A DNA stretch of 64,000 nt, from contig CM022671.1 of NCBI GenBank assembly GCA_012295275.1, forward strand, positions 32,178,001 through 32,242,000. Direction: 5' to 3'. Under the pieces are notes generated by a model. That model was not told the origin of the DNA. It worked only from the letters and a program-made list of their open reading frames with translations, and did not search any database. Below, piece by piece: positions 23,203 to 62,854 of the stretch. The translations under genes were made by a program, and so were the position numbers. Within the stretch, counting starts at the first letter, position 1; each line of letters begins with the position of its first letter. The stretch comes from Chrysomallon squamiferum. Lineage: Eukaryota; Animalia; Mollusca.

Positions 23203-24689
23203 TTAGTAATGATAATAATAATCATCATCACAACAAAAACAGCACTAACAACAACAATAATAATAATAGTGATATTTGTCCCATTCCCTTAAAACATCAA
23301 AAACAATAGCTTTCCTGGTATTTTATTTTATTTATATGATCTTAAATTCTTTCTGTAAAATATTTAATTTTTGAATTTGATTTACATAGTAAATGTCAGC
23401 AGTTAAATAAAAGAGAAATAAACAGTTTTAGTTTCAAATGAAAAAAATTAGAGAGAAAAACTACTTAAAGCTACACTGACAAATCAGTATTCCTTCAATA
23501 ATGATTCTTTTTTCCACAGATAGCAATTAAACATGTGTGGGCTTATTTCAAACAGTGATTATACAGTTTTTCTTGGCCTTGTTTGATCCTGACATAAACC
23601 CGCTCAGCACTAGTACAAAGGAATAAATTGAAATGAAAATAAAGGAGTCATTGCTCCTGTGATTCCAGTTTAAGCAGAACTGATAAAAGAAAACTTCCCT
23701 CGAGCTCTTTCTGTTTAACTGTTTGCTTCACACATTAAGTTTCAGCTTCATTAAAAACGACGAGCCTCGAGGCCGCAATAAACTTTTATTGATGCTTTGT
23801 CTTTTCCCCAGGAGCCATTTTTCATGATTATTAGCTGTGACTTCTAAGTAAGCGTACAAGTTAAAAACACTAGAAGATAAACAACATTATACTCTTGATT
23901 GCCTTGCTCAACAAAGCTAATGTATTTTGATGTAGTATTTCTTCTACTTGTCTCATCTGATGATAAATAATCCTTACCCTCCTCCCCCCCCCAACACACA
24001 CACACTTTAAAGTTTATAAATTAAATGGTTTTGATCATTGCCAATCTCTGGCAATTTATTGGAGTAAATTGATTTGTATTAAAAACATTCAGCCTTAATC
24101 TTGTGGTTGATAAAAAACAAAATTCTTAATATTTCAGAGTGATTGGGTTTTGATGTTTTCATTTTGGAGTAGGAAATTTACTGAATGTTACAGTCTATTG
24201 AAACTGCTGGATTTGAAATTTATTTATTATTTTTTTTAAATTGTGTTTCACCTTTGATCAGTTTGGTAATAATAGTCACATTTATTACCACGGATTTGAT
24301 GTAATAAGATGGTTTTTAATGTTTAACATGAGCAAACTCAGATTAAATTTTCTGCTCAGTCAGTTGGTTGAATTGGTTGGGTAACTTGCCTTTTGCAAAA
24401 ATATTATTTTAAAAGAAAATGATGATATATTTTTAGTTAATTGAAAAATTAAATTTATGTGTTTTTGTCGAGCAGTTTTTTCTTTTTTTATAAAAAGAAA
24501 AAAAACATAATTTCTACAGAATTATTTAATTATTTTTTTTCAGAGAATTAAAAATAAAATATTACCTTTTCTTTATTTTCTGTTTTTATTATTTTTTTAA
24601 ATTGATTTAAATGGTCAAATATTACAGTGCTGTACAAAACAAACTGTATATTTTATTTATTTACTTATGTTGATGTTTTCTTCTTCCAG

Positions 24690-24824
24690 CAGAATTTGAA
24701 CCAAAATACTCCGGCAGCCAGTGACGAATCCCAGACAACAGAAGAAGGTGATATAGAGGACCCGCCACAAACCAATGGCCCCACCCATCCACCTCGCTGT
24801 GTGTCACGTGATCGACTAAGTGAT
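24690..24824 (+). CDS. AUTS2: Internal coding exon of an AUTS2/FBRSL1/tay-family gene (equivalent of human AUTS2 exon 3): QNLNQNTPAASDESQTTEEGDIEDPPQTNGPTHPPRCVSRDRLSD
   Basis: Pyrimidine tract plus ttccAG acceptor (AG 24688-24689), with a second CAG ending 24692. Donor GAT|GTACGT. 135 nt, open, phase 0/0, GC- and CpG-rich island in AT-rich DNA. Ends in SRDRLSD, matching the recalled SRERLSD of AUTS2. Confidence 0.88.
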
Positions 24825-26753
24825 GTACGTGTTGTCTTTTCTTTCCATCGTTTTTCATTTTTGTGCTCGTTTCTTCTTCTTTCTTCCCAACTGAAAATCC
24901 TCTAACTACCATTGCTATAATTATTTACATTTTTAATATTTATAATTTTGCTATTACAGAATTAGCATAAAGGTTGTTATGTGTTTCATTAAATAAAGAA
25001 GAAACAGATAAAATAAATAAACTAGGCTTTGTGGATTTAAAATTGTATTCGTGAGTAAAACAGGTGATTCAAATCATGAGTAAGGTAAAAGCATTGCACA
25101 ATTCGCTAAGTTATAAATACAAGATATTTCTGATACAAAAGTGAATTTATCATCTTTTATTCTTAACTGACATGTTTAAAACATTTTTGTTGTAAACTAT
25201 GCTGATTCACATATTAATAGTTATAGTGGTACAAGGTTCCATTGTAGTTATTTATATATACATATTACAAACAGTGAAAATGATATTTTTGTTTATATGA
25301 TAACAGAAAGTTTGCTTAGGACTATAAGATAAAATAATTTTTCCATTTTTGATAACAAAAATAGACTAGTAGTTTAAAATGTTTAAGTTGACAATCATCT
25401 AGGAAAGCTATAAAGATTTATTTTTGTAATCAGAAAATTGTTTCATTTGTTTAGCAAACACTTTTTTCAGTGAATTTCAAAAATGTACTAAATGCAGAAA
25501 TAAATTAAATTTTATATTTATTACTTGTTCTGAAATAGAAACATTTCAGATTACAAGCATTTTGGATGAAGGATTCTCAATCTATATTGTGACTATAAGC
25601 GGAGTAACAGATTATATCTTTGCTGCATTTTGAAATGTCATATTAATTTGTCTGTACTTGCTGACCCACCCATTAAATGTTGATAAATTAAATTTTACAA
25701 ATTATATATAAATTATAAAACTTAAAAAAAAAAAATACAAATAATTTTGCAGAAATGAATATTAATGTGTGTTTTTTTTTACAAAAATAAATAAATTTAT
25801 ATATATTTTTAAGATATTAATAATAAATAAATAAAAAATTTAATAATCCTTTGTTGTATAATACAAAAAAAAAATCCTATTTGCTGTTGCTTTGTTTGCT
25901 TTGTATCCATCCATAATGGCTGACATTTTATGGCCAGTTGGAGATATAATCCCTTTTTAAACCTGATAACTGTAGCATGGCCCACAATTAATTACTGCCA
26001 TACAAAATTTCATGCCAGTCTGCTTTATTGATTGCAAAAATATTGCTTATCTATTATTACTGTCAATCGGGTTTTATTTCATCGCTATATGAAAGGAAAT
26101 AGTGTAAATTGATTGGTTGCTTCTGTAATGGACAAGGGGTAAAGGATGCTTTTTATCAAAAAAAATAAAGAATCCTATCAGCTCTGTTCTCTACAATGCT
26201 TCCCTATTGTAAGCTAACATGGTGAAAAGCCATTGATTGGATTCAGATTTTCAGGAGGAAGAGAAGCTTTCTGAATCGTTATCGGGCTACCGGCTATAAT
26301 ATGATTATTATCGCAATACAAGGAAGCAATCGTCCAGAAAGATATAACACTCTTCACACTGCCATGCACATCTTCCTGTCGCATCAATTATAGCACGCTG
26401 CTCTCGAGAGCATGGCGCTCAATCAATAGGTCACAAGGAGAAATCTGAAACATGCTTGGGCTGCAAATGAAGTGTGTTCCTATTGTAATGGCTGCTAGAG
26501 TGAGCCCTCATGAGTTGGCATTCAGCTCTTTTCCTTGTGTTTGTAATTTGCTGTGTGTATGTCTGTGTGTGTGTCTATAAAATTAACCCCTCATTGATGG
26601 ATTGATGAAGAGGCTTGGAAATAGAACTGTATTCGTGGAGTGAAAATTTTATTATTGACTGGTCTCACCGAGACAGGTGGCCTCTTGAATGATCATCTGT
26701 GAGAAAATGGAAATAAAAGAAAATTTAAAAAGAAAGAAAGCCAACTAAAATTG

Positions 26754-26788
<35 letters not shown>

Positions 26789-27048
26789 CTCTTATCATGG
26801 CAGCTTGAAGGCAGAATGCATGATGTGAAAAACTTGTTAAACAAGACTCTTTTAAAGTTAGCACTGTACTTGCAATGCTGTGAACATTGATTTTATGTCT
26901 TGTTGAGGTCATGGTGGCTAGCTGTTTTGTAAGACAAGTATTTGACAAAGTAGTTTTTAAAATATTCCATTTCTTTCACTTGATTTGATAGCTGAAAGCT
27001 TCGTCATGAAAGGATGCTTATTTGTTCTTCAATCTTGATTTTTTTCAG
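24825..27048 (+). other. Intron, 2224 nt, GT-AG, phase 0
   Basis: GTACGT...tttcAG joins two in-frame exons. Confidence 0.85.
26755..26785. repeat. (CA)n microsatellite
   Basis: Direct reading. Confidence 0.95.
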
Positions 27049-27084
27049 ACAAGTACTCACTCCAGTTCAGGCCAGGGATATATT
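27049..27084 (+). CDS. AUTS2: 36-nt coding microexon (equivalent of AUTS2 exon 4): TSTHSSSGQGYI
   Basis: tttttttcAG acceptor and ATT|GTAAGT donor. 12 codons, phase 0/0. Same length and S..SS.G.GY pattern as recalled AUTS2 SSAPSSLGTGYF and FBRSL1 SSAHAVSGRGYS. Confidence 0.9.
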
Positions 27085-27116
27085 GTAAGTATTAGCCTTT
27101 TTATTATAATTATTGC

Positions 27117-27153
<37 letters not shown>

Positions 27154-30100
27154 AATAATAATAGACATGGCACCCAAATTATATCTTTGCATCTCACTTC
27201 ATTGTCTTGAAAATATTTTTGAACAATGAAGACAATCTTTTTATTTTTTATTTTTTCTATCTCTGTTTATGTTATAATTTTTTTTACTTTCTTTCTATTC
27301 TTTTTCTGATGTGAACATAAGATGCACACAGTCTTCATACAAAACATTCTTGTTGAGTCATGCATCATGTGGGTTTTTTATAAAGTCAGCTTTTGTTTAT
27401 GGAATGATTATTAATGGGCTACTTAGATTCTGTTGCATTTAATGATTTCTACATTAAAGTGAATGGTTTTATTTGATTTTCTCTTCTTTAAAACCATTTT
27501 TATGTCTTTATTATTTATACAAAAAAAATTTGATTTTTTATTAAAGAAAAAAAAATAATTTGTTTTTTATTTATCAAAACTAAAAGTGAAACTATATATT
27601 TATCTGTGTGCGTGTAATTTTTTATTATTTCCATTGTAATATTATATGAAAGGAAAGTATCATTTTAACAAAACAAAAACATAAAACAGTGAAACCAAAC
27701 TCTTGAAACATTTTAGGGTAATAAAATTTAAATTGGTGAAGGGGAATTTTTTAAAATTTATTATTGTATTTTCAGTTTCAAGAAATATATTTGCTACAGA
27801 CATATAATCAAAACTTTATCATTCTTTTTATAACCAGCATTTTTAAAATTTAGTTAAAAATAATTTAATCTGGGAATAGCAGCAACTCTCCTGGAATGAG
27901 GCAAAATCACAGGGCTAAATAAAGAGGTCAGATTGATACAGGTTTGGCCTAATTGTATTTAATTGCATAATTAACAGCTCAGTGATTTTTCAGTTTAGCT
28001 TAATGCCACAGGGAAGGGATCAATTTAAAGGAATTAGTACACTGTCACTTCTCAGTTACCCAACACTACATGTATTAGGTTTATGATTAGACAGGCTGAT
28101 AAACCGTTGAATTTCAGAGGTCAGCTGCTGTTATATTCCACACCAAGCTTCATTACCCTAATGCCTGCTGCAATCTTTGGTAACAAATCCCCTTTACAAA
28201 TTGTCATCTTGTTTCACAACATTAGGCAATGATAACCACATGTTTTCAGCTTCTGTTGCACACCTCATTTAGTCTGGTTTAGTGATGTAAGGGCCAGAGG
28301 TATGACGTAATAGTTCAGTTGTATATCTCTGTGGAATGGTATAATTTAGTAGAAGCAAATTGCTGTGGTCGGTTATTTTTGGATATTGATTTGTGAAATT
28401 GTTTTCAAAATGTCTCTGGTGGCATTAGAATGACTTTTAGACTGCAAGAACAGATAATTCAGGTCATGGAAAGTATTTGAATTTTTTTTCTCCTTCTCCT
28501 TGAAGAACATTATTGTTAGAAAATTTCAATGATGTTGTTTACATTATTTTTTAAAATGAAAATGATGTAGGTAATAATGGCAGTTTCTATAGACATGTAT
28601 ATCAGCATGAGAATACACTTTAATTTTTAATTTAATATACATTTCTTTGGGTTTCTTATTTATATAGTAAATGATAATGTACAAATAACATTTTTATTTG
28701 TTTTTTTGACAGCTGAATTTTTTTTAAATTTTTTTATTTATTTATATGTAAAGCAAAAAGGTTTCTGATGGTCATTTTATTGGATTCATTCTCAAGTATC
28801 AAAAATTCAAACTGTCAGTACAGGTCTGATTTTTGTTAGGCAATCAAGAAAGAAAATCAGCAGTTTGAAGTTTTCTCACAGTTACTGGTTTGCAGTATGC
28901 TAACAGTTAATTTACATTGTCTAGTGAAGGTGCAAAATTTCAATTTATATGGTCTCACAAAGGTGCAAACTTTCTGTACTTGGTATTATATGGTGCGTCT
29001 TTTAACAGTTAATTCCTAAATGCAGCCGTATCACAGCATGAATTCCTTCTCTAATTTAATTTAAGCAGCATCATGGTGTAATGAACCGTCTGACCTTTGT
29101 CATTACATACATACATTGCTGGCCATATAACATTTAGTAACCCATGAAATAATATCACAAACTACATATTGCTTTTTATGATATAACATGTAAAATATCA
29201 GGAAGTTTGACAAGACATTACTCAACTTTGTTGGCAAGAGTTACTGCACTAGTGAAAATATTAGCAGTTAAAGTGTCCACTGAACTTGTAGACTCGTGTA
29301 TAAATACCAATCTTTGCCTGGGGACTGGAATTTTGCTGGTCACAAGGTCATGTCACTAGTGTTAACTTTTAACACCTCTCCCTGCCTTTGATGTGACTGC
29401 TATTGGTGAGACATTATTTATTGCTGCCCTCTGAATTAGTCTGTGTATTTTAAAATGTTCTTTTTGGACAGTTATTTCCAAAGTAAATCATGGAAATTAG
29501 GGCTTGATTTTTATTTGACACATTTTATTTTATTTTTCATTTTTTATTTCATATTTTTTTTTTTTTTTTGCTGTTCAGAATGGCCTTTTGGCAATGTTAC
29601 AAGCAGACAGAAGATTAAAACAGTGGTATTTTAAAGTGAAAAAACAAAAATTAAAGAAAAATATTGAAAATATTTCAGTACATTTTAATAGATTATTAAA
29701 TAGATACTAAGCATATGGTTTTTGTATGATGATGTCCTAAAGATGGCACTTGCATAAATTTAAAAATAAAAATGTAAATAATTTTTTATTATTATTATTT
29801 CATTGTGTGTGTGTGTGTGTGTGTGTGTGATGTATTTTTATTTTTATTTTTATTTTTATTATTATTATTTTTTTTTTTGTTGTTGTTTAAATTATAAAAA
29901 AATATATATTACATTACATGTTATTAAAATAAGTGATATTTCACAAATGCCAGTTTCAGACACAGAACAATTCATCATCGAAAAAAAAAAAAAATCAAAT
30001 AGTTCTTGACAAAAAATTCAGTGGACTTCTGACATTTAGTGAAATTTTCACTTATTTAAAATGTAATTCATCAGCATGAGGCAATGAATTAAAGGAAATT

Positions 30101-31541
30101 GGGTTGGCAAAGTGCATTCATTAATTATTTTTCATCTTCTCTGTGTCTCTCTCTCTCACTCTTGTCTGTCTTACAAACTCTGCCACTGACCAACATCCAT
30201 GGAGACATGGAGCGAACATGTCTTAGTGAGGAACACCAACATCTGACAGGACAATTTCAAACAGTTCCGAGCAAACACCAATCACATTAAAGGAAATTGC
30301 TCCACTCTCGGGGAAACTCGCAGCTCTTCAACAAACTCATTGCAGACGTAATTGGCATTTGGTCGAGAATAGAAGTGATGTGCCTCTGCTACAAGGGGTT
30401 GCCATGACAAAGGCAGGAAGTGTTGGAGAATGCTCTGTTGATTGGTCCTTATTTTAGCCAGGCATGACCGAGGGATCATTACAAAGACCTACGGGGAGTG
30501 CGTGAATATCAGGCTCAACCAGCCGATAATTTGCTGAACATGATCCCAGGCTGTCTGCCTGATTGTCTGATCATTAAGAATGGTTTGCTGAAGAAAGAAC
30601 TGATATTACTGCAGGGCAGCATTTTAAATTAGCAAATGCTGACTGCTGACTGTTTTCTGTCTGGTCTCTTTAAGACTGTCACGTAGAACATGTCTTGATG
30701 AAACAATACTAGGTTGTAATAATTGTTTCTGATGAGAATTATTTTACATTATAAATCTGAAGTAATTCAAAGAAATATTTCATAACTGCGGACTGTTGTT
30801 TCTTGGAAGGAAATTACTTGGATTTAATTTCTCTGTATGAGCTTTTGTAAAGAAATGTCTAGACAGTCTCCGGATTTTGGATATTGATGTAGGAATTAAT
30901 TTGATTGTTTGTTTGGTTTTGTTAAATTGTTATTATTATTATTTTTATTATTATAAAAATAATAATAATAATAATATTTCATATTTTTTTATATTCATTT
31001 CCTGAATGAAAAACTGGATATAACCTTTAATTCCTTTTGTTTATTTAAATAACTTTTTTTTTTTTCCTCAAGTAAAATCATACATTTGTTTCTTCTTCTT
31101 CTTCTTCTTGCTCAAAGGAAAACTCTCAGAGATTTGTTCAGTCTTTTCTGAGTTTTCAGAACATAAATTAGGGTTTTCTATTCCAGGAAATGTCAGCAAT
31201 TTATTATGTGTGTGACCTAATGCCTTGTTGACAATAGCTTTGAGCTTTCAGTAGGAAATGTATATATTTAAAGAGTACAGACAATGATCTTTATGTGCAT
31301 CTGTGCATGGCAGAGTGCACAGCAACTGCAACAGATAGATGTGATAAATGAATATCTTTTGTTTCTCGGAACACTGGATACATTATAAATAAGTATCCCA
31401 TGACATTTTAACATTAACAGTTGTTAGGTGTCAGACATATATTTTATGTATAATGATATGAAAGACAAAACTTGCCGATAACATTTCTTTTGTCTGTTCT
31501 TCCAGTTTAGTAAAAGAATTTTGTTTTGTTTTTTGTTAATA

Positions 31542-31574
<33 letters not shown>

Positions 31575-33879
31575 ATCATGTAAAATACAACAAAAAGTCT
31601 TTGATAAATTATATATGGGATAGTAGTTGCAAAGGGATATTGTCCTCTAGGTGCACTAAGGAAGGAATTGAGAAATGTTGTATTTTAAAAAATGCTTTTA
31701 ATTTCCATTATGTGGCATCACACACATGGTTAAAGACCATACATTTATGCTATGATTATCATACATGGATAGAGCACTATCCAGTGAACCCTTTCATTAA
31801 ATAAAACCAACAACTGTTAGTATCAATGTCAAAAAGTAAACACACCAGAGAAAAACTTATGGAAAACAGGAGCTTCTGAATGACTTGTTTGTTTTGCTAC
31901 TTTCAGTCACACTGGTGCAGTCAGTGGTGTAAGGTGTGCATGTGCAGTTAGTTTATTTTCTCACATGTTGAAATGCTCTGTTCAGCAGATGCCCATGTTT
32001 GTTTGGCTTGTTGATTATATTACTCACATCAGACAAGTGTTCAGTTATTCAGGAAAGATGCTTGGTTATAATGGCTGGCATACAGGTCATCTGGTTCTTG
32101 GAACTACTGGCACACAAGAACAAAGAATTGTTTTTATGAAGAAGGCTATACATTTTAAGAATATTTATATCTTAATTCAGTGATTAACTTATTTTAAGAC
32201 ACCCAGAGACACATACAAATACAGAAATGAATGAATGCATAAATAAATTGCATGCTTTATGCAACTGTATGGTTGCCTTCAAAGCTCCCAGTTGTAGTCC
32301 AAATAATAAGGATTAATATTTTGCCTGAAGTATTTCTGACAGTAGTTAATTCACAATTCCGAGAGAGCTTCACTTATAATATATAGCCTAAAACCATAGT
32401 TAATGCTGTAAGACTGATAACAAATTGCTTATAACCTACTTTTGTGATGTAGGTTTCATTTCTGATTCAACATTACAACCAGTGAATGAATGTGCTGAGA
32501 TCAGCTGAGTATATTACTTATGCATTCAGGTTAACAAATGTCATAAATATGATCATACAACCTAAGGGTTGTAGTTTCAAAAATTTACAAGGATCAAAAA
32601 TAATGCATTATGTTCCCATTCCAAGCAGAGTCCCATGACTGCTTTGTGAAAAACACTGGTTTAGGTTTTCCTGTTTATAAGAAGGTGTTTATAAAAAGAT
32701 CCATGCTGCTAATTGTAAACTGTCCATTGCATTGTGGTAGGAGGTTTCCTGGCTGATTTCACCATTATATAACAACCCTGTGTTTGAAAACTAATAGCAG
32801 TTAATAATATAATGCGTTGACATTAAGTTAAACAAATATTCATTGATTTAAAAAACCACACTTAATAAATCATAAGTGACAAGACATTATAAAAACTCTG
32901 TGGTTAGTAATCTATTTGGTTATATATCAGTGTTTGGTTCACCGTTCCTGGTATCTTACACCCAGTTATCTCTAACATCTCTGCTATGTTTGACATTTAC
33001 TGAGTTAATTGTACACACTATCCTGTTATATATTCTGTTACTCAATTACCGAGTGCTGTTACTTAAGTTATCTTCCCTGACAGGAATGTCGTTTTAACTA
33101 ATAGCTGGTGTACCTTTGTTTGACATGCTATATCTTTACAGTTCTGTTTCGTTTTTATTCCTTTCCTCTTATTTAAAATTTTTTTCTTTTTTTTTTCTTA
33201 ATGTTCTAACAAAACACATTTGCTATATAATTTAAATTTGCATTTGAGAAATATGATGAGGGAATGTTTTTTTTTATGTTTTAGACTATCATTTCAAATA
33301 TTTGAATATTTTCTTTATATTTATTCCATTTTTTTTCTTTAAAATTTTTTTCTTCAGATATTTATCCAGAGTTAATAAAATGTATATAGCTATCTAATCT
33401 ATCTGTCTAATCTATCCATCTAATCTAGTGATTTAATCTACCTATTTATCTGTGTCAATCTGACCATAACTCTCTCTATTTTTAATTTCTGTCTTGCTTC
33501 CTTTTCTTTCCCCAACCCCATACCTTTTTTTAGGTGGTTTTTTTTTGTTCTTTTTTTTCTGATATAAACCGAGACAGGAGTAACTTCTGGTGTACACTCA
33601 CACAGCCAGTGTCAACAGTAGCCAGGCTGCATAGAGTTGTCTGGCCCGACCTTCATCCTTGAACAATTACAATTCAAAATGGTTGACACAGCCTGGAGTG
33701 GTCCCCATTATCACTGCGTGTGAAGGACTACAACAAACACGCTGTCACACCAATTGCAAGCTGATAGCTCTGCCATTGAGATCAATCAATACGCACAGAG
33801 GTCAAAACTTCCCAGCATGCATTAGCCTGTTTACACTGATTCGTTAATATTAATAAGCTTTGTCTCTTTTCTCTTGCAG
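27085..33879 (+). other. Intron, 6795 nt, GT-AG, phase 0
   Basis: GTAAGT...ttgcAG joins the two microexons in frame. Confidence 0.85.
29804..29829. repeat. (TG)n microsatellite
   Basis: Direct reading. Confidence 0.95.
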
Positions 33880-33912
33880 CCGGAATGTGACAGTGCCACG
33901 GATGATGATAAG
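33880..33912 (+). CDS. AUTS2: 33-nt coding microexon (equivalent of AUTS2 exon 5): PECDSATDDDK
   Basis: Strong acceptor ctttgtctcttttctcttgcAG and donor AAG|GTAGGT. 11 codons, phase 0/0. CDS..DDDK matches recalled AUTS2 CDSDSDQEEK and FBRSL1 CDSESGPDDK. Confidence 0.9.
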
Positions 33913-34914
33913 GTAGGTGTTGTTTTTTTATTTTCTTTCCTTCTTTCTTCTGTTTGCTAACACATTATGACATCATGTACACGTCTTCCTAATATCCTGA
34001 GGGTATCATCGCCTGCCATGAATTAAGATAAGATGGCAGTGAGGCAGCATCACTGTGCTTGTTTGTGATAGACACAGGAGTGTGTTTCATTGACCAAGTA
34101 ACCAGATGTCCATGGTGATTCATCAGCCATTCTCCATGGATCAGTGCAGTGTAATTCTCACAGAATGTAGTTGTATTTTTTTTCAGTGTCTTGATTATTT
34201 AGAGCAGCATAGCAGACACCGATCATATAGCTTCATCACCTTTTGACCTTACATAGAAATTGTATCGTCTCTTCTTGATTTAAACAATATATATATATAT
34301 TTTTTTATTTATCCTCTTTTCATATTTCTTTGTTGTCATACTTAACTGGCTTTAAGTTAATCAGTTGCTGGAAATATAATTGCTTTCTTTTCTCAGCTGT
34401 TTGTTAAGCATTGTTTACACATACCCCAGTACCTGCCTGTAACTGTGAATTGTATGAATTCAAGTAGTGATGATAGATATGTATGTCTGCAGCGTGGATT
34501 AATATTTTAAAAATACATTTAAACTTACTGTCAAGGGCTAAAATGTTCAGACTGATCATCTGGTTGTTGTTGTTTTTTTTTTTTTTTTCACCTCCATTTA
34601 AGGAACAGGACATCAAAAGAACTAGGATTTTAGCAGTGTGGAGCAGTGTCATTGTGTTTAGTGAGTCTATGTAGGCTTTGTGTTTCCAATCTTAAAGGGC
34701 CCCTACCTGCCGTGTGTAATCAAGTGATCCATATGGCGTGTACAGATCTATACACAGCAATGATTTCAAATGGCAGTACATTTGTTGTATGCTTGTTGTT
34801 ATAAATTAATAATGCTGCTCAAAGGTTTCAGTTGATGATAATTTCGTTTGTTCTGTTTTTTGGTTTTGCAGTAATTATTTATATATTTTTTTTTTTTTTT
34901 CTATTTTAATTTAA

Positions 34915-34946
<32 letters not shown>

Positions 34947-36404
34947 TATAATTATTTTATGACTTCACTGAAACTTTTTTGTTCTTGCACAAGTCCAAAA
35001 TATTGTAGTTTGTTGTTGCTATTAATAATAACCAAAATTATAAATATTTATTATTATTATTATTATTATTTGTTGTTGTTGTGAAATTACAAGAGTATAT
35101 AATTATTGTTGTTCACATTTTTGTGTACACTCCTTAAATACTATTCAATAACAATAGGTAGAAAGTAGATTTGCAGCTTCACAGTTTTACAACTGAAAAA
35201 AGCCTCTGTTACCAGAGATACTGATATATATAAATCTGATATTTCCTGGTAACCATGAGGATCAAACTATTTAATCTTGGGAAGTCTGTATACATATTTT
35301 TTTTAATTTTTAGTTTATTAAAAGATCTTGTGAGTGTCTGATGGCAAGTTATATCACTGTAAGTTATACAAATGTCTGTGTTGGAATGTGTTGAAATATT
35401 TTTAATCAGATGTTTATCACTAAAACTTTTATTGTAAAAGAAGTATGCTGTTGGTGAACTATTTTTTGATAATTATTTATTAATCAAGCATTTAAAGTCT
35501 AGTAGTCTGAACAAATGCCCTAAACACAGTTTGTTTACTCAGTGTAACCTTTGTTAACAATAAAGCATGATGTTGTTATAAACAAGATATATCCAGCTAT
35601 ATTCCTTTATCATGTCATGTAACTAAATCATTTGTATTGATAAATTAATAGATAAATTGATGCATGAGGTAATTATGCCACTTCTAATCATCACAGTCAC
35701 TTGTTGTTGTTGTTGTTGTTACTTGTTTATCAGTGATATAGCTATAAATGAAAATATTACTTTATTATTAGCAAAGGACAGAAACATACGAATAAAACTA
35801 GTCACTAGGATAGATTGTTTTAACTTTCCATTCCCACAATTGCTAGAATATTTTAAATACCTCAGGACATGTAAAGAAAAGATTAGTTTAGACACGTTTG
35901 TCTTTTTCTTTCATACTTTTTAAGAAAGTATTGTAGAACAGTAAATAATCCTAGATACGTATCTGTTGAGAATGATACTGCACAAAAGAAATATTAACTG
36001 AAAAAAAAAGACAGAAAAACATTCATTTTTCATTTTTTTTTCATTTTCTTTTTTTATCTTTTTTTTATTATATGACAGGCCTCTCTGGAATTGGATTTCT
36101 ATCTGACAATAATTTACATTTTCCTCTTGATTTTTTTTCATTTTTTTTTTTTTTCCATTCCAAGTTTTTGCTTGAGGTGTTATTAAATCTTCAACACAAA
36201 TCATTATATATTTATCAGCAGGGATGTTTTATTTTGGTGATTAATTATGAGGTGGAATTCAGGATGAGGATTGATTTTAAACACTTTTTTTTTTTTGAGT
36301 AAACATTTTTTCATTTAATTTCGTAAATTTTTATTTCATGTTATTTTTTTTTAATTATTTATATTATTCTTAAAAAATATGTTTTGTTGAAGTTTAATGT
36401 ATGA

Positions 36405-36426
36405 TTATTTTACCTGTCAGGTGAGT
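36405..36426 (+). other. Candidate recursive splice site (abutting 3'ss and 5'ss)
   Basis: ttattttacctgtCAG|GTGAGT, junction 36420/36421. Confidence 0.4.
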
Positions 36427-39400
36427 TTATGTTGACCTGTTAATCTTGTCTAAGTGTCAAGTGTCTGGCTTGTATTTTATCTCTGTGGCAGCTGTATCTA
36501 TATTACACCCTTGTTGTCGCATGCTGTGTAACCCACACCACATCTACAACATTTATTATGCATTTTTTTGTCATTAGGCAATTTGATCCTTGTTGATAAA
36601 CAGGCTTATGCAGTATATTCATTTTGCTCCTCATGTTACACAAAGCAAAAGATATTTAAGTGTTTAATACCATCTCTGTTTTTTTTATAAACAGAAAAAC
36701 AAAAAATGTGTATACCTTTTTTTTTACATCTTTCGTTTTATCACTTACTGGCATGTATGCATGTCTCTAGGGTTAAAATGATTTTTCTTTTGACTTGGAA
36801 ATCTACTCAAGGAGCCAGATATTGCACACTGTTAATCACGATAACACAATGTAATTTTCCAAGAGGCATTTTATATCTCCTTGTAAATTTTATGGGGTCT
36901 ATTACTACCAAGTTCTAAGAGTGCATTAATGCAGATAGATAGCCCAATATGCAAAGGGCGTTTGCAATCACCATAAGTCTATTTTTAACTGTCAGGAGGG
37001 CACCTGTTTTTAACCCAGGTAGACCCATGCTGTGTTTTCAAGTGTTTAGCAAGACATAAGTTTTTAAAACACCAATTTAACTTGACATTTGTTGCATGGT
37101 AATAAGAAAATGGCATGTTTGTTGCATGCGTAACACTGACATATTCATTTTTTAAATTTGTTTTTATGTTGTTATTTATTTATATTTTTTTACTCAGCAC
37201 ATTACAACTAATGTAATTGATGTAATTGAAGGAGGTTTCTAAATTTTAAAAATTCAGATTTTGATTTATTTATTTAACAAAATATTTGTTCATGATTACC
37301 ATCACAAAAATCTCTTATTTCAGCTCCCAAAACTGTTACATAGTACTTCCTTTTTTTCGTCTTTTTCCAACAACCACAATAACTATTACTGCTATTACTA
37401 CTGTTAATAACACTGCTTCTGTTGCTGTTTCTAGGACTACTGCTGATGTGGTTTTACATCATCAGTTGTAAACAATTTTTTTTATAAACTGGAAGAAAAA
37501 AAGAATGAGAAAAAGAATTGTCCTAATTACTTAATACCACCTTTTTCTGGTAGGATTGGGAAATGGATTAATTGCTACTGCTTGCACTAATACCATGCAT
37601 CTACACAACCTGAAGGGGTTTACTTTGAGTTCTTTTCAACCCTATTCCAGTGATTTCATGGGCTCAGTCATCCCTTTGAACTGCAGCGTGAAGAAGTCAT
37701 TTGTTAATAACAAAGGGCTATTGCGCCTCAAACCAAAGGACTAGGTGATTGCGCTCAATTGCATTTCAAGATCTCCAGTCATTCTCACTTGATAAGTACA
37801 AACTGCCAGGCCAGAGGAGGATGATAGGAAAATATTTATAGAGTTTGCTTTCAAGTGGCTGCAATTTATGCAGATGGCTTTCTCTTAGGGTTCAAAAGAA
37901 GCTGTTGTGTCTGAATCAGCTGAGACTAAATTTGATGGATATTTACAATTTGATGACAGGCTACATTGGCTTTTTTTTTTTTAATTTCTTTTTTTATTCC
38001 GTACGCCTGGCAGAGGTTTGAGTATTAGTAGAAGAGAGAAACTGAGTCATAAACAGCCCAATAGAACTGTCAAATTTATGTGTCACTTCTTTTTATTCTC
38101 ATTAACCTGCATCACTTGATCAGAGGTCTGGGAATTCATGGACACTGCATCCATTTCATTCTTGTTAGAAGAGCTCCAACAGGGAGTACTGAATGTCCTC
38201 TGGTGGCCAATATGAAATTCATGACCTCGGCTTTTCTTCGTTGTAGGTTTTTAGGATATTCATAAGTTTAGTGCTCCCACTGGAGCGATCATTCCAGATC
38301 ACTCATGCAATGGACGGCAGAGCTGATTTAAGCACCAAGAGCATGTTTGCATGAAAATCACATTATTTGCTGGGAAATTGAGATCTAATTCGGTATCTCG
38401 CACATTATGTCTCCAATCAGTATAGAGAATCCCCATCAAAGGAAGAAAAAAAGGATTTCCAATAAATTTGATTTTCTTCCTTTTGGAATTTCCCTTGAGG
38501 TCTATAATTGAGCAGCAAGTACACTTGTTATTAGTTTCCTTTTTTTTTTTTTTTTTTTTTTTTGTCTCTTCTTTCTTTGTTTTTAATTCTTTTTTTTATT
38601 ATTTTTTTTTTTTTTCTTTTATTTCTAATATTTTCTTCATTTTTTTTTTTTTACAATTATTTCCTTCTTAAGTTTTTTTATTTTATTTTTGTTTTATATA
38701 TATAAAAACAACAGCATAGAAACTTGCCTCTTTGAATTAATTATAATTGGAATATCACAGATACTTACATTCAAGTTAGCTAAAAAAAGGACTTTAATAT
38801 GAAATACATTTCTAATACATTAGTAGTGTGTGAAACCTCATTTTTACTACAGCACTTTATTATTTTTGTTTGTTTTAAATGATTTTTAAAATATCTGAAC
38901 TATTGCACAGTTTATGTCCCTATTACAAGATGATAAAGGAAATAAGAAAAGAATGAAAGAAAGAAAGAATGAAATGAACAAACTGAACCTTTGTAAAGCA
39001 CACAAGATTTACACACTAAATTAACCTTATTTTACTGTTTATTTATATAAGTACTTTTGAATAATATTAACCAAATTGTGCTGGATAAATAACAAAACTG
39101 GATTACTTATAAACAGATTAGTAATGGTCAACCTGCATTAAGGAAGTAGGTTAATTTCCTATACTGACTAGTTCAGAAATCTTGTTTTCCTGTTGAATTT
39201 GGCTGCATGACTTGTCCTTTTAGATTAGCTTATTTTCATGTTCCACAATGTTCAAAAATAAATTTTGTCAGACCCCACTGGAAAGGAGTAAATGGGTACT
39301 ATGCACTTATGTTCTTCACTTAAAAACATACAAAATATTTTTTGATTTTTATCTGCTAACCGATTAATGTAAAATTTATTGCTTTGCATGTGTAAGATAG

Positions 39401-42400
39401 GTGTGGACTATACATGTTTTTCTTTTTTTTTTTTTTTTTCTGAAGCCTATAGAAAAGACTGAATGCTGTCATACGTAATTATGTCTGTTCAATTAATCCT
39501 GCATTTTATCTTCTTTCAAATGACGACTGAGTGTGCAAACAGGAGTCACTGAGCTGTATGATCTGACTAAATAACACAATGATCTGTGTAATCTTATTCA
39601 CAGAGTTATAAAAAAAAAAAAAAAAATAATAATCTTTTCAGTTCAATTCATAAATGTGTTAATGGCAGTCCTGCCCTGTGCAAATACATACAACTGCACA
39701 CTTGTATCCATTCATTTGGGTATTGTAAGATACATTTACTTACAGACAGACAGAGAGATATAGATACATACACCTGGTTATTAAATGCCTGTAATTTGAG
39801 AAAAATAAGAAAAACTCTGACCTGATGTATCCTTTTGTATATCATGGCCAATCCTATGTTGAAATTAAGAGACCTGAAAAATAAATAAGTTGTTTCTTTC
39901 TTTGAAGGAATTGAACAGAGCGTTTTGGTTAATCTTGCCACCGCTTTTCATCTTAGAGTTAGATAGTAGGTGTAACAGTGTTTGTAGTTTCTTGTTGGTA
40001 ATCACTCTGCACTTGGTAAGTGTTTTCAGCATGGTGGGTTGTGACTGTCCTTTACAGGTTTATTCTTGTCAGTCTCTGCCCTTTCATATTCTGAAGAATA
40101 ATTTATATTTCTGACTTTACACAGGTTCAGTCTTTGATGAGGTGTTTTATTGCTGTGACTTTGCTGACACTTTTTAAGACAGAAAATTATTAAATATTCA
40201 TAAAGAGCAAAAAGAAAAGGAATGAAGTCTGTTAAATTAAAATTGTGACTGATACAGATGAACTGACAAAAGGGTTTAAACGTGTGTTTTTGTAGAGAGA
40301 AAGAGAAAGACAGAGAGGGAGAAGACAAGGGATGGAAAGACAGGTGAAGGAGGGTTAGAGCGAGAAAGAAAGAAAGAGAATAAATATGAGACATGGAGAC
40401 AAAGAATCCTAAAACATTTCTGTTATATTACCTTGAAAATTCTTTGACATTGTCAGGTTTTCTTATTTACAGCCTATAAATGATGACAATTTAGCAGTCA
40501 ATGGCTACCTGTGGATTTTATAATAGAATTGCTCAGTGAAAAACTGTTTAAATATTGACATACACTTGATGCAGACTTTTGAAAACAGAAAGTATTTAAT
40601 AGAGCTGTTGTATTGATTTGTTGCTATGGTGCAAAAATAACATTAAAAAAGATATTTGAGACATTCACAAATACCTTTGAAACGTAATCTTTTGACAGGG
40701 TAGAGTTTGTATTGTGTAATTGTTGCAGATAAATATTCTGGGAAAAAGATCAAATGAGAGATGTGTTTGTGTGAATGAGATTATGTAAGTAAGGCTGTGT
40801 GTGTAATAAAGGTAATGTTCTGTCACAACATATCATTGAAATAATTTTCATACTTATCACCTTCCACCTCATCTGTTTCTTGGAAGTGTGACAACACTTT
40901 CCAGTTTATTGTATTGATCTCTTGATAGGTTTACAGTCGACCTAACACCTTTGTAATCAGTAATCTGACAATGTCATCAGGTAAACGTGTGCTTTTAATC
41001 GGCACACCTGTGTTTTGTCTGTTGGATGCCAAACCACTAACGACGGTACACCCCGTAATACCTGAACTAAGTCTCCAAATAGCCAGATAACGCCATGAAA
41101 GGTTTTTGCGAAACATCTGTGTAATTTGTTGAGAGCTCACTACAACCTGCACCATTAGTGATAATCTCGTCTTCAGCTAGCTGTCAGACTCCCTGTTTAC
41201 TCATTATATGTGCATTAAGTTTTTGCCTGCTTATTGGCAGATAACTCCACACAGGTATGGAAACTTGTTAATCTAATAAGATTGTTGAGATTAAAAGTAA
41301 TAACAGTGCTGGTGATAGCCTGAGGCATATGTGCTGTTAATTGCACATTTTCTGCTCTACTTTGTAAATAAATCTTACAGTGTAATTTGGATGCAAGCTG
41401 ATTGTGTTTTTGACTTTTCTCTGTTGTAGACTATGTATTTAAATTTTGATTAGTGTTTTCTTTTTCCTTTGTAGAGTTTCCTATTGTTGTTTGTTTTTTA
41501 TGTTACGTGATATATATTTACCTATATAATTTCAAAGAAATTTTGTAAAATTGGTAGCAGGTTTTTTTTTTTTTGTTTACTTTCATTTAAAAATTATGTT
41601 GTAAACATCATTTAAATAAATCAAAGGAATTGTCTTAAATATTTTTTTCTATATTTACATACAAAATTTAGAGTTTATTTTACATGCAAATATTTTCATC
41701 ATTTTTTTTTTTTTTTTTTTTTTTTTTGTATTTCGTTTCTTTTTGCTATAATTTTGGGAGCATTTTAAATGTAAATTAATCCCACGTTTTAATGAACTTC
41801 TTTGTTTTGCATGAAATAGCTGAAACATTTTATTTTGTGTGGGTGTTCTTAAAAAAAGTATCAATTGAATAAAAAACTGATCTATTTTTTACACCTACCT
41901 TTTCTTTTTCTTAATTAAACAGTGTTAGGAAATATATAAGATTAAGGCTTAATTTTTCTTTAAACTGTTTATATCAACAGCATCAACTAATGTGCATACA
42001 TGGTAATGTAATATTCAAACTAAAATTATGTTAGTGATGAGCTGGTTCTTTTAGGTGATTGTGCCCTATTTGCAACTAAAAATAATTTTCTCTGTCTCTG
42101 TATAATGTAAAAAAAAATCAACTTTTTTCTCTTTGGTTTTTCCCAGTGATCCACAATTGGTTTATCACAGATTGATACTTGCTTTCCCATATATGGGAAG
42201 GTGAATATACTAGACTGCTTGTTGCTCTTTTTTTATGCAACCACTGCTAAGATTTGTATGTTATCAATTTATCACTGCAGAGGCTTTGGCTAAGTTTTGC
42301 TATGGTTTACAGTATTTTGAGGAATACGGATATAAAAATTTAATATAAATTAATGGATTAAAAAAGACGAAGGAAAAAAGTATGTATGTGTGTGTAAAAA

Positions 42401-43520
42401 GAGATTTGTTTTTAAAGTTATTTAAGAACACATTAAAATGCTTTGAGAGAGTTGTTTTTAAAAAAGAGTTAAATAAATTGCACATAATATTTCTCCAGAA
42501 ACTTAATAGGTTATAGATTTTTCTGTCTCTTTATTTTGTTTTTTTGTTATGACATAGAGGCAATATCGTTTATCCCTATTTTCTATTTCATTTTATTATT
42601 ATACATGTATTTTTTACATGCCAAATTTTCTGATAAATTGATATTTTCTTACAACTTAATAAAAAAAATGGTATTACTTTTTTCACATGTAACGGTAACT
42701 TTTGCTCTGGCAGATAACAAAAAAACAAAAACATTTTTTTTTTTATTAAGCTGATAAACTGGAAATTTATAGATTGAAAGCAAAAACTACTAATGTTTTT
42801 TTGGAACACAAATTACTTTTTTTTTTAATATGAAAAGGAGAAAAAAAAAAAAAAAAACAAACAAAAATACTGAAAAATTACTTCTTGAAAATTTAAATGA
42901 TAATAATTTCTAACAACAACAACAGAATGTCTGTAATCCCCACACCACAGTAATCTGCATGTCATTACTGATTCATAGACACTGATCATTATGGTCAAGG
43001 GATATTCATATTCATCATCAAACGAGACAATACAAATCAAATACTAAACAGTCCAGACTTGTGGACACCCTACGGCTCTTTAAGATGTCACCAGTGTGTA
43101 GTGATAATTGTTATAATTTGGAAGAAATCATATACCTAAGCTGGGATGATAGCATCAGATGCGATAGAAAAAACAAAATTGGCAGTTTCTTGTATGGATT
43201 TGTATTAGCTCTAACTGTCATTTGTGATAAATTGGAGAAAATTTGTCACGACCATCTCGGTATTGTTGTCTAGGCAGGAGTAATTCCACGATTACCTTCA
43301 ACACGACAGAATGTGTAATTATCATATCAGCAGTTTTTCACTTGTATTATTACTTGCTTGCAGAGTAAAAACTATTCCTGTTGTGGGATTATTTGTCATA
43401 GATTCTTGCAAGAGTAAAGTAATCTTCTTTGATAGCTTGAATAAGACAGATTTAGATAGGATTTTGTTTATTTGTTTAAATGGAACTTTTTTTTTTCTCT
43501 CTCCCTTTCTTTGTTATTTT

Positions 43521-43538
43521 ATTTTATTTTTATTTTTA

Positions 43539-43570
<32 letters not shown>

Positions 43571-43808
43571 TTTTATTATTTACTTTGTTTTATTTAGTTA
43601 GTTTTATTTTTATTATTTTTTTATTTTATATGTATATATTTAAATTTTATTTTTATTTTGTTTTGTTTTGTTTTGTTTTGTTTTGTATTTTATTATTTAC
43701 TTTGTTTTATTTAGTTAGTTTTCATTTATTTATTTATTATTATTATATATTTTTGTTTTGTTTATTTATTATTATTATTTTTTTATTCAATATGTATATA
43801 TTTAAATT
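43521..43808. repeat. Imperfect tandem duplication of a T-rich unit containing (TTTTG)n
   Basis: tattttattatttactttgttttatttagttagtttt and tatgtatatatttaaatt each occur twice. Confidence 0.8.
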
Positions 43809-44089
43809 ATTCCCATGTAATTAATGAATTTGTTTTGGGTTGTTGTTTTCTGGGGGGTTTTGTCACATAATTATTTGTCATTTATACCTATCTGTCTTAT
43901 TTTATTTGTTTGTATCAGCCAGTGACATCTGTTGCTTTTGTAGTTAAAGGTATTGTTTAAAAAATAAACCCCAGATGTTTCTGTCTGTAATTTGACATGC
44001 ACTATTTATTATTGTTTAACATGCAGTTATTGTTGTGTAATCTCTTTGTTATTTTGTTTTAGTCTATTATTATGTAGTCTAGTCTAATT

Positions 44090-44520
44090 GTTATAATTAG
44101 GTAATTCTAGATTTTGAATAATTTTAGGCTATTTATTGTTATGTAATTTAAGGCATTATATTATATATTTTAGGCTGTATTTTGACATTTTAGGCTGCAT
44201 TATGTAACTCCAGGCATTACAATATTTGGCAATTTTTGTGCAATTTCATGAATTATGTAACATTATTTTAGGATGTATAATGTACTTTTAGGCATTATTT
44301 CATTTTAGGCTGTATTATGCAATTTGAGGCATTATATCATCTCATTTTAGGTACTGTGTAACTTACAAATTTGATCAGGTACTTTTAAGCTATATTGCAG
44401 TTTAAATATACTAGATCATTTTAGGCTATTGATTGTAGGTGTAATTTAAGACTGTATTATTATGTCATTTGTATTACAGAGTAATTTTAGACTGTTATTG
44501 GGTAATTTAAGGCTTTATGT
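44090..44520. repeat. Degenerate minisatellite, ~20-25 bp unit, core TTT(T/A)AGGC
   Basis: Recurrent ttttaggctgtattatg and taatttaaggcattata variants. Confidence 0.75.
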
Positions 44521-45189
44521 TGTTTTGAATATATTTTTGTGTTAAGCTGTTTCTTTTTATTGTTTTTGAGGGTTTTTAAAATGTATAAATCATTTTGACA
44601 TGAGTATTTAAAATAGTAGGTGTGCATAACTGATTTATTGACAGCAACAGATGTTAGTAATTTATCAGTTCTTATTTTTCACTCTGTTATTGATTGACAT
44701 TATTCAGATAAATTAAATAAAGCATTTATAAAGTGCATGCTGATATACACACACATGCAGTTTTAACACACACAAAATATACATACACAGGTACAAATAC
44801 AAATATGCAGGTACATACATCTGTATACTTATTTTCAGTCAAATGCTATTTATTTTGTAATAACCTTCAGTGGAATGCTGAACACGTTGAAAATGTAAAT
44901 TAACCTTTTTTGAAGGAGTCTGTGATCTCTTCAGAAGTATACATTATTTATCAAAGGTCATGTCTGAAGTATGAGCATTAATTTTTTAAAACCAGCACTC
45001 TGTTCTGATGACAGACGAAAAGTCTTGAGCTTCAATCAAAATGTCACCAAGATTCCTCACAAACCCACCTTAATAATAATGTTTGGTGGACATCTCCCAC
45101 CCTCAGGCATCTACCAAGTCCAGTAAATGCTCCTTCATTTGGACTTGCAATTCAGCTACATGCTAATAACAACATTTCAGAGAAGTGAT

Positions 45190-45828
45190 CTAGCTCGAGG
45201 GGCTGTGCTTTTAACACTAGTATTTGCCTGTTCACTCAGACGTAAAATTACAGACTGGAGATCCGATTTGAGAAAAGTTATGTTGTCCCGCGGGGTAATT
45301 TGGGCTGACTCCAATGCTGAAGAACTGCCCGTCTGAACAGAGCATCCCAAGGTAGGCCGCGTCAGGTGGTATAGACTGTGACATCTCTCTGTAAGGATCG
45401 CACAAAGCTGTCTATGACCCTTCGCCTGTATTGGTGAGAGGTGTACATTACAGGCTTTGCTGTTATTATGAACAGCACCTTTGAGCTGAACGACAACGAT
45501 TTGGAGAGAACACAAGAGGTGGATTACCTGCCGTATTGGATGGCAAATGTGACAGCTTGATACGTTTTTATCTGGACACATCTCAGTATCTGATCACACT
45601 GGGATTATTTGTGTGTGTGAGACTGTTGTGCAGTAAGCAGTGCTGTCTGTTATTGTCATTACTTCTTGTTTGACTTAGTTTATAATTTAATCTCGGTCCT
45701 GTGATACCTGAATGTGTTAATGTTATAATAGCAGATGGGATATTTTGTATGATGTTGTGCATTCTAAATTGGAAATCTGAGGTTGTGATATGTAAAACCA
45801 ACCTTGGATCAGGCTAGAATTCAGAAAG
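45190..45828 (+). promoter_or_regulatory. CpG-rich island, possible alternative promoter/first exon or enhancer
   Basis: Clustered CpGs (ccgcgg, ggccgcgtc, ccgtc). TCAGT near 45583. Donor AAG|GTGAGG at 45828/45829. Confidence 0.35.
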
Positions 45829-46513
45829 GTGAGGATTTTTATTTTGTTTTGTTATTTTTTTTCCTGATCCATTCTTTTAAAATTTTACATCTGCCTCAGT
45901 GTTTTATTGTGGTTGTTTTGTTTTGTTTTTTTATAATTTTTTTATTTATTAATTTTTCTAAAAATAATTATGAAATGAAACAAATTTACTTTTTAAGAAT
46001 ATTTTCAGCTATTGAACTATATGGCATTTGTCTTTTATTTCAAAACTTTTCTTATATCTTTTTTTTAAAACCTTTTATTTACAACCTTTCTTTTCTACTG
46101 TGGATGTTGATATCAACATTAATGTTTATTTATTTATTACCTCCTACTTATCTTATTTACTTATTGTAAGAGTAACTTCCTAGTGAGGGCGTGGAAAGTG
46201 TAATTTCTAATTTAGTCATACTTGTGGTTATTTTTTTCAAGTAGCTGTAGGCAAGGTCTAGTCTGGCACTTGGACATCTGATATTTCTTAAAGAGCGAAT
46301 TGAAGGTGGTTGTTAAACTGAGGTCAAGTGCTTCCTAATGACTTGCTTAGAAAAAACATAGTAGAAGTAGTATGTACTATACATCCAGCACTAATTCTTA
46401 TTAAGAAGGGAGTATGTAGAATAATAAATTCTTGACCTGTACTTGAATATCGAGCAGGATATTTACATATTCATACATGCGCACACAAAAGTATTCATAC
46501 ATATATTCACATA

Positions 46514-46578
46514 CAAGTGTATAATCATCCTTATTAGCACACATGCAAGTGTATAAATATCCTTATTAGCACACATGC
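46514..46578. repeat. 32-bp tandem duplication
   Basis: caagtgtataa(tc/at)atccttattagcacacatg occurs twice. Confidence 0.9.
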
Positions 46579-46585
46579 ATGAGTG

Positions 46586-46646
<61 letters not shown>
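46586..46646. repeat. (CT)n(CA)n compound microsatellite
   Basis: Direct reading. Confidence 0.95.
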
Positions 46647-46648
<2 letters not shown>

Positions 46649-55600: not shown

Positions 55601-55610
55601 AAATAACACA

Positions 55611-55613
<3 letters not shown>

Positions 55614-55680
<67 letters not shown>
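55614..55680. repeat. (CT)n microsatellite
   Basis: Direct reading. Confidence 0.95.
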
Positions 55681-55684
<4 letters not shown>

Positions 55685-55979
55685 CTCTTCTCTATCTCTC
55701 AATTCCATATTTATTTTTTCTTTCTATTTTTATTTTTTTTCTATCCATCTCTTCTTTCTCTGTGTTACTATGCCAATGATTTCCTGCCAAATACATTAGT
55801 GGTTTATGTGTTAATTACCATGCTAGAAATCGTCAGCTGAAGGTTACCATTCAATATTTGTTACATGTAGAGTTGTGTTGAGATAATGACAGGGTTGTTA
55901 TTTCTTGATGGAACAAGGTAACCCCCAAGGCAGATGTTATCTGAGAGGCCTCATTGTCAAGTTCAGCTCAGCATGGCAG

Positions 55980-56017
<38 letters not shown>

Positions 56018-58910: not shown

Positions 58911-59057
58911 GTGAGTTAAATTTGTAATTGCTAAAATTAGCTTCTCATGTTGAATTATTAACATGAATAGAGCAGGATTACAAGGAAACTGGGATATTTA
59001 TTACAGTTACATTAATACATACTCTGATCCATTAATCTAGAGGCCTCCTGCTACTGT

Positions 59058-60156: not shown

Positions 60157-60194
<38 letters not shown>

Positions 60195-62816: not shown

Positions 62817-62854
<38 letters not shown>

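What the first reader, a model, noticed from the sequence alone, without database searches (positions are those of the whole stretch)
24690..33912. AUTS2/FBRSL1/tay orthologue with a conserved chain of microexons
Seen: three GT-AG exons (135, 36, 33 nt), all phase 0, splice to ...SRDRLSD|TSTHSSSGQGYI|PECDSATDDDK. Known (recalled, not searched): AUTS2 has SRERLSD|SSAPSSLGTGYF|CDSDSDQEEK split at the same positions over very long introns, and FBRSL1 and insect tay share the motif. Inference: intron positions, the 36-nt microexon and the long-intron layout are ancestral. Only 204 of 64000 nt are coding, so ORF-based annotation would probably miss or truncate the gene.
Basis: partly seen in the sequence, partly recalled or inferred. 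Interest (0 to 1): 0.8.

Follow-up and report, generated by a model that had tools for sequence, protein, structure and literature searches.

The report
Invertebrate AUTS2-family gene, short conserved exons
These three short exons are part of an animal gene, likely an invertebrate's single copy of the known AUTS2 neurodevelopment gene family, with introns at the same positions as in the human gene; RNA also joins three different upstream pieces onto them, which may yield forms lacking the part predicted to dock on Polycomb.

Summary
The three exons are real. Their peptides match published AUTS2-family 'Region 3/36R': the 36-nt exon is 9/12 identical to amphioxus, oyster and snail, 6/12 to human. 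All three downstream exon ends fall at the residues where human exons 3, 4 and 5 end, in phase 0. RNA contigs from 3 of 3 RNA runs laid (one study) show junction 24824-27049. Junction 27084-33880 has only an indirect hint. Corrections: (1) two more spliced segments lie in the window (ending at 41 and 6367), so '204 coding nt' is too low; (2) 36 and 33 nt exceed the strict 27-30 nt microexon cut-offs; (3) fly tay keeps the region poorly; (4) an ancestral long-intron layout is untested. The family, this region and its short exons are published, including mollusc and amphioxus members. The one new lead is three alternative 5' partners for the exon-3 equivalent, resembling zebrafish auts2a alternative first exons. 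The scan noted AUTS2-family loci in two other genomes, but not this exon chain. Verdict: new member of a known family, low interest.

The parts
1..41 (+). Exon A, 3' end only (5' end not seen, probably before the window). Open in frame from base 3; donor GT at 42. Either an alternative first exon or a cassette exon; no counterpart noticed in the published orthologues read.
   Evidence: Loose ends of contigs in runs X1 and X2 match 8-37 (X1 from 12) and continue through 41 into 24690
6338..6367 (+). Exon B, 3' end only (5' extent unknown); donor GTAAGT at 6368. In-frame stop at 6320-6322 and no in-frame ATG after it, so likely a non-coding alternative first exon or a cryptic/poison exon. Minor form.
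   Evidence: One contig of run X1 (depth 4.1 against 23.4 for the exon A form) joins it to 24693
24687..24692 (+). Tandem acceptor CAGCAG; both AGs are used (exon start 24690 or 24693, one Gln more or less)
   Evidence: Exon A joins at 24690; exon B and a third partner from outside the window join at 24693
24690..24824 (+). Exon C, 135 nt, phase 0/0, ends in SRDRLSD; equivalent of human AUTS2 exon 3
   Evidence: RNA contigs cover it and stop at both edges in 3 of 3 RNA runs; human boundary at residue 208
27049..27084 (+). Exon D, 36 nt, phase 0/0, TSTHSSSGQGYI; equivalent of human exon 4 (36 nt)
   Evidence: its first 29 bases follow exon C in RNA contigs; 9/12 identity to amphioxus, oyster and Biomphalaria
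33880..33912 (+). Exon E, 33 nt, phase 0/0, PECDSATDDDK; equivalent of human exon 5 (30 nt), with two extra residues before the conserved Cys-Asp
   Evidence: best-scoring + strand exon candidate in the window by a simple splice-site score; junction not directly observed
33913..64000 (+). Inferred intron of more than 30 kb; no exon-6 equivalent found
   Evidence: Motif scans at 1,462 AG sites found no convincing match; T-over-A skew persists to the window end

Best explanation
The window holds internal exons of an AUTS2-family gene, likely the single-copy invertebrate orthologue (aAUTS2p), equivalent to human exons 3-5 and predicted to encode part of the disordered N-terminal arm of a nuclear scaffold protein. 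Shown: exon coordinates, splicing of C to D, three different 5' partners of C, use of both AGs of the tandem acceptor, and intron positions and phases shared with human AUTS2. Inferred from vertebrate work: exons 1-2 (outside the window) dock the protein on PCGF3/5-type PRC1, a central region recruits p300 or CoREST, and residues near 600-700 bind WDR68/DCAF7. The 36R stretch has no published function; my best guess is a Ser/acidic linear motif tuned by phosphorylation (CK2-type sites, consensus recalled). Exons D and E are most likely short constitutive exons, kept because all flanking introns are phase 0, not neural switch microexons. Isoform variety arises upstream of exon C.
For: Peptide matches over three consecutive exons to published family members (counted by eye): the last 7 residues of exon C are 7/7 with amphioxus; exon D is 9/12 with amphioxus, oyster and Biomphalaria, 7/12 with Tribolium, 6/12 with human; exon E after its first two residues is 5/9 with amphioxus. 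Boundaries coincide with the human exon table. Junction C-D in 3 of 3 RNA runs laid, and both RNA-versus-window differences in exon C (24755, 24824) are synonymous. The 9-residue spacing from Cys to the basic residue matches the invertebrate orthologues read (human has 10). One family gene per invertebrate species examined (PMC7732068). Binding maps: AUTS2 1-208 needed for PCGF5/RING1B, 600-700 for WDR68/SKI; FBRSL1 1-163 binds PCGF3.
Against: No database search gave a family hit: exon C alone found nothing, and only three unrelated repeat proteins. The searches could use only the 45-residue, mostly unconserved exon. The defining Auts2 domain (PF15336) and the IDGF motif lie outside the window, so orthology rests on about 30 residues plus intron positions. 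Junction D-E is not directly seen. All RNA evidence is assembled contigs of one study. No function was tested in this animal.
Confidence: 0.92

Rival explanations
1. Same gene, but exon A (and B) are alternative first exons from internal promoters in intron 2. They would give isoforms without exons 1-2, hence without the nuclear-localisation signals and the Polycomb-docking segment, switched between samples. This is compatible with the best explanation and refines it.
For: Runs X1 and X2 show A joined to C; run X3 shows a different partner with a Lys/Arg-rich in-frame end, not in the window, as expected for the exon-2 equivalent. Window bases 1-2 are TG in frame, so the codon could be ATG. Zebrafish auts2a has first exons 1B and 1C spliced to its exon 4; the 1B form swaps 166 N-terminal residues for 16 unique ones. 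That zebrafish exon 4 equals human exon 3 is my inference. FBRSL1 1-163, exactly exons 1-2, binds PCGF3.
Against: The 5' ends of A and B were not seen. An ordinary cassette exon A explains the same contigs. Contigs cannot show transcript starts. The base before position 1 is unknown. B is minor and seen in one contig.
Confidence: 0.4
2. Exons D and E are regulated neural microexons (SRRM3/4-eMIC type) whose inclusion tunes the protein.
For: Both are short and frame-preserving. Teleost Auts2 has lost the exon 4 equivalent, so it can be dropped. About 60% of neural 28-51 nt exons respond to srrm3/4 loss in zebrafish.
Against: Every contig leaving exon C (3 of 3) enters exon D; no skipping seen. 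Lengths exceed the 27- and 30-nt definitions. Only one TGC lies within 60 nt upstream of D, and for E it is part of the acceptor.
Confidence: 0.1
3. Chance motif matches in non-coding DNA, or a decayed duplicate of the gene.
For: No database hit for exon C; no downstream family exon within 30 kb.
Against: Spliced RNA with exact AG/GT edges, synonymous-only variants, ordered motifs absent from shuffles, and boundaries matching human.
Confidence: 0.03

Closest known systems
aAUTS2p, the single-copy invertebrate AUTS2-family protein (Branchiostoma belcheri XP_019617514.1, Crassostrea gigas XP_011428497.1, Biomphalaria glabrata XP_013085616.1, Lingula anatina XP_013416597.1; PMC7732068 S1 Table)
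   Same: Region 3/36R in the same order; exon D 9/12 identical to the first three; 9-residue Cys-to-basic spacing in exon E.
   Different: Two extra residues (Pro-Glu) before the conserved Cys-Asp; this 4-letter motif had 0 hits in the S1 Table text held, where each sequence is cut at 400 residues. Extra exon A. Intron positions of these orthologues were not checked.
Human AUTS2 (NP_056385.1) and FBRSL1
   Same: Introns at the same residues and phase 0; 36-nt exon 4 in both; a long intron before the exon-3 equivalent and after the exon-5 equivalent.
   Different: Exon 5 is 30 nt against 33; exon 3 is 102 (AUTS2) or 90 nt (FBRSL1) against 135/132; the two middle introns here are 2.2 and 6.8 kb, below the 16-301 kb human AUTS2 range; exon D only 6/12 identical to AUTS2.
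Zebrafish auts2a (PMC5555464)
   Same: Several 5' partners splice onto the exon inferred to equal human exon 3; NAGNAG acceptors occur in the gene.
   Different: There the partners are 5'-RACE-verified first exons; here their starts are unseen. Teleost Auts2 lacks the 36-nt exon. Its NAGNAG sites are at other exons (3, 8, 15 in zebrafish numbering).
Drosophila tay bridge
   Same: Same family; keeps equivalents of exons 5 and 6.
   Different: Region 3 is only 22.2% identical to human and described as not well conserved; the protein is 2,486 residues.

Membership tests
AUTS2 family (aAUTS2p/AUTS2/FBRSL1/FBRS/Tay) | Region 3 (36R) with the conserved Cys-Asp couplet | tested here: met
   comparison by eye with published sequences
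AUTS2 family (aAUTS2p/AUTS2/FBRSL1/FBRS/Tay) | Exon boundaries of human exons 3, 4 and 5, phase 0, with a 36-nt exon 4 | tested here: met
AUTS2 family (aAUTS2p/AUTS2/FBRSL1/FBRS/Tay) | Auts2 domain, Pfam PF15336 (human 645-857) | not testable with these tools
   Expected beyond the window; no genome is held. 0 Pfam hits for exon C plus 23 of the 51 long stop-to-stop frames
AUTS2 family (aAUTS2p/AUTS2/FBRSL1/FBRS/Tay) | Region 2 (IDGF motif) and N-terminal NLS in exons 1-2 | not testable with these tools
   Not in the window in six frames; expected upstream of base 1
AUTS2 family (aAUTS2p/AUTS2/FBRSL1/FBRS/Tay) | Exon-6 equivalent directly downstream | tested here: inconclusive
   Not found in 33913-64000; human introns here reach 301 kb, so absence in 30 kb decides nothing
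AUTS2 family (aAUTS2p/AUTS2/FBRSL1/FBRS/Tay) | Binding to PCGF3/5-PRC1 and WDR68/DCAF7 | not testable with these tools
   The mapped binding regions lie mostly or wholly outside the window
Neural microexons (SRRM3/4-eMIC programme) | Length 3-27 nt (30 nt in some definitions) | tested here: not met
   36 and 33 nt against definitions
Neural microexons (SRRM3/4-eMIC programme) | Tissue-regulated inclusion | tested here: inconclusive
   3 of 3 contigs include exon D; contigs drop rare forms

The most novel reading that the evidence does not exclude
An internal promoter in intron 2 of the AUTS2-family gene, splicing onto the exon-3 equivalent, is an ancient switch shared by this invertebrate and zebrafish. 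It removes the Polycomb-docking exons 1-2 and so toggles the protein between PRC1-bound and PRC1-free forms by tissue or stage. Exon A would be its first exon, giving a unique 14-residue start if the base before the window is A.
Probability: 0.13. Interest if true: 0.55.

Novelty: new member of a known kind. Interest (0 to 1): 0.22.

Why it matters
Modest. It gives a direct case of three intron positions and a 36-nt exon shared between an invertebrate-type AUTS2-family gene and human AUTS2, and it flags a gene whose N-terminus is easily truncated in annotation. If exons A and B are first exons, the long/short isoform logic known from vertebrate AUTS2 (PRC1-bound versus PRC1-free) would extend to invertebrates and become testable there.

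Tried and rejected
Protein searches with exon C alone: nothing (longer proteins; similar length; Atlas; Pfam); one search gave three unrelated repeat proteins, rejected. A motif scan of metagenome contigs for the 36-nt exon with splice sites gave 3 matches; all carry the same 57%-GC sequence with a stop in the frame, rejected as chance, so intron positions in other invertebrates stay untested. Rfam: 0 hits in the window. Repeats: only simple T-rich and microsatellite tracts among those shown. GC-rich patches at 15176, 30176, 45201, 54901 and 58226 were translated and none resembles a family exon. Run X5 (kind unknown, second study) laid nothing on exon C: no evidence either way. A search for cDNA-position notation found nothing useful. 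Taxon: exon D is equally close to amphioxus and molluscs, so the phylum is unresolved. No fold or complex prediction was run, since the segment is short and the mapped partner-binding regions are outside the window.

Full report
Observation. The window is AT-rich animal-type DNA (26-34% GC per 2 kb) with no N; no whole genome is held. With a simple splice-site score the 33-nt exon ranks first among 14 + strand candidates and the 135-nt exon passes; the 36-nt exon has weak sites and falls below my cut-off. Family-type motifs tied to a splice site occur 1, 1 and 1 times on the + strand against means of 0, 0 and 1.4 in 40 shuffles. The motifs were written after seeing the sequence, and the third alone is not beyond chance.

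RNA. Five runs hold the region: four RNA runs of one study and one run of unknown kind from a second study. I laid three RNA runs and the unknown run on 24665-24860. In 3 of 3 RNA runs the contigs cover only the exon, stop at 24823 and go on with a C (a synonymous variant of 24824) plus the first 29 bases of 27049 onward, so junction C-D is shown. The unknown run laid nothing. Junction D-E was not observed. One contig (X2) extends 71 nt past 24823; 1+36+33 is 70 and the next intron begins with G, which fits a graph branch one base after exon E. That is a hint, not a proof. The other RNA difference, 24755 A>C in X3, is also synonymous.

The 5' side of exon C has three different partners. One (X1, X2) maps to window 8-41 with a GT donor at 42 and joins at 24690: exon A, open in frame from base 3. 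One (X1 only, depth 4.1 against 23.4) maps to 6338-6367 with a GTAAGT donor and joins at 24693: exon B, with an in-frame stop at 6320-6322 and no in-frame ATG after it. The third (X3) has no match in the window at 3 mismatches, joins at 24693, and reads in frame as a Lys/Arg-rich end, like the basic patch that closes human exon 2; I infer it is the exon-2 equivalent upstream of the window. Both AGs of the CAGCAG acceptor are therefore used. Contigs show presence, not absence or level, so the sample-to-sample difference is suggestive only.

Identity. No search with the 45-residue exon C found a relative; only its last 7 residues are conserved. The identification rests on published sequences in the S1 Table of PMC7732068 (cells cut at 400 residues), compared by eye. 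Amphioxus matches the end of exon C at 7/7, exon D at 9/12 and exon E (after Pro-Glu) at 5/9. Oyster and Biomphalaria match exon D at 9/12, Tribolium 7/12, human AUTS2 6/12. [quoted passage not shown] It reports one family gene in each protostome examined and in amphioxus. Exon D does not separate molluscs from amphioxus, so the phylum stays open.

Gene structure. The human exon table (PMC9008325 supplement 1) gives exon 3 = residues 175-208, exon 4 = 209-220 (36 nt), exon 5 = 221-230 (30 nt), all whole codons. In the human sequence printed there, 208 is the Asp that ends the motif shared with exon C and 221 is the Cys. FBRSL1 has 90, 36 and 30 nt. So the three donor positions and phases match. 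Exon E is 33 nt because two residues precede the Cys and the acidic run is one shorter than in human; the five invertebrate orthologues read have the shorter run. I could not check intron positions in other invertebrates: the metagenome motif scan returned only a chance match. The Biomphalaria model starting six residues before the 12-residue segment suggests an intron there, by inference. On length: human introns 1-6 are 16-301 kb. Here the intron from A to C is 24,648 nt, C-D 2,224, D-E 6,795, and the next more than 30,088, with no exon-6 equivalent found. The pattern is partly similar, but ancestry of intron length is untested. By the 27-nt and 30-nt definitions D and E are not microexons.

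How it likely works. By homology the product is a disordered nuclear scaffold. In vertebrates AUTS2 1-208 is needed for PCGF5/RING1B binding and 600-700 for WDR68/SKI, and the short isoform does not bind PRC1 (10.1101/2021.06.29.450402). FBRSL1 1-163 binds PCGF3 while 164-778 binds CoREST and not PCGF3 (10.64898/2026.10.20.760506); 1-163 is exactly exons 1-2. None of this was tested for the present animal. For 36R my guess is a phosphorylation-tuned Ser/acidic linker motif (CK2 consensus recalled). The alternative 5' partners recall zebrafish auts2a, where first exons 1B and 1C splice to exon 4 and the 1B form replaces 166 N-terminal residues by 16 (PMC5555464). Zebrafish coding starts in exon 2 (PMC9454499), so I infer its exon 4 is human exon 3. 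If A is a first exon, its product would lack the Polycomb-docking part; window bases 1-2 are TG in frame, so one unseen base decides whether it starts with ATG. A cassette exon fits equally well, and convergence is likelier than common ancestry.

Novelty and verdict. New member of a known family. Searches listed no paper devoted to intron positions or alternative 5' exons of invertebrate AUTS2 orthologues, but I read only listings for most, and Fig. 4d of PMC7732068 draws exon schematics for ant and fly that I could not see. What I saw: PMC7732068 text parts 1-3 of 7, passages, part 1 of supplement 16, and parts 4-5 plus search rows of supplement 1; PMC9008325 passages and supplements 1 and 3; PMC5555464 sections 13-14 and passages; 10.64898/2026.10.20.760506 section 7 and passages; passages only of PMC9454499, PMC12626424, 10.1101/2021.06.29.450402 and 10.64898/2026.05.13.724911; abstract starts only for PMC8378409 and PMC8042270. 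Supplements of the preprints were not seen and may refine the binding maps. Earlier scan notes list no finding in this genome and two AUTS2-related loci in other genomes; I tested neither and they did not change my reading. Interest 0.22.

Noticed in passing
window 1-41 and 6338-6367: Two spliced segments upstream of the finding, joined to the 135-nt exon in RNA contigs; acceptor choice at the CAGCAG site differed by partner (24690 for A, 24693 for the other two).
   Followed up: partly
window 24200-34100: The four RNA runs hold 30-47% of the sampled words of this 98% intronic stretch, which points to abundant intronic RNA or DNA in those libraries, yet no contig covered the intron bases flanking exon C.
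   Followed up: no
window 15176-15476, 30176-30601, 45201-45501, 54901-55151, 58226-58500: GC-richer islands (0.47-0.53) inside AT-rich introns; no family-like peptide, no Rfam hit, and no Pfam hit for the long frames tested at four of the five; possibly regulatory elements or repeat remnants.
   Followed up: partly
window 33880-33885: Two extra codons (Pro-Glu) at the start of exon E relative to the published orthologues read; may reflect an acceptor shift in this lineage.
   Followed up: partly
window 1-64000: T-over-A skew on the + strand in all four intronic stretches (0.03-0.13), consistent with one long + strand transcription unit filling the window.
   Followed up: partly
window 43515-43781: Tandem duplication of a 117-nt T-rich unit, about 2 copies at 84-92% match.
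   Followed up: no
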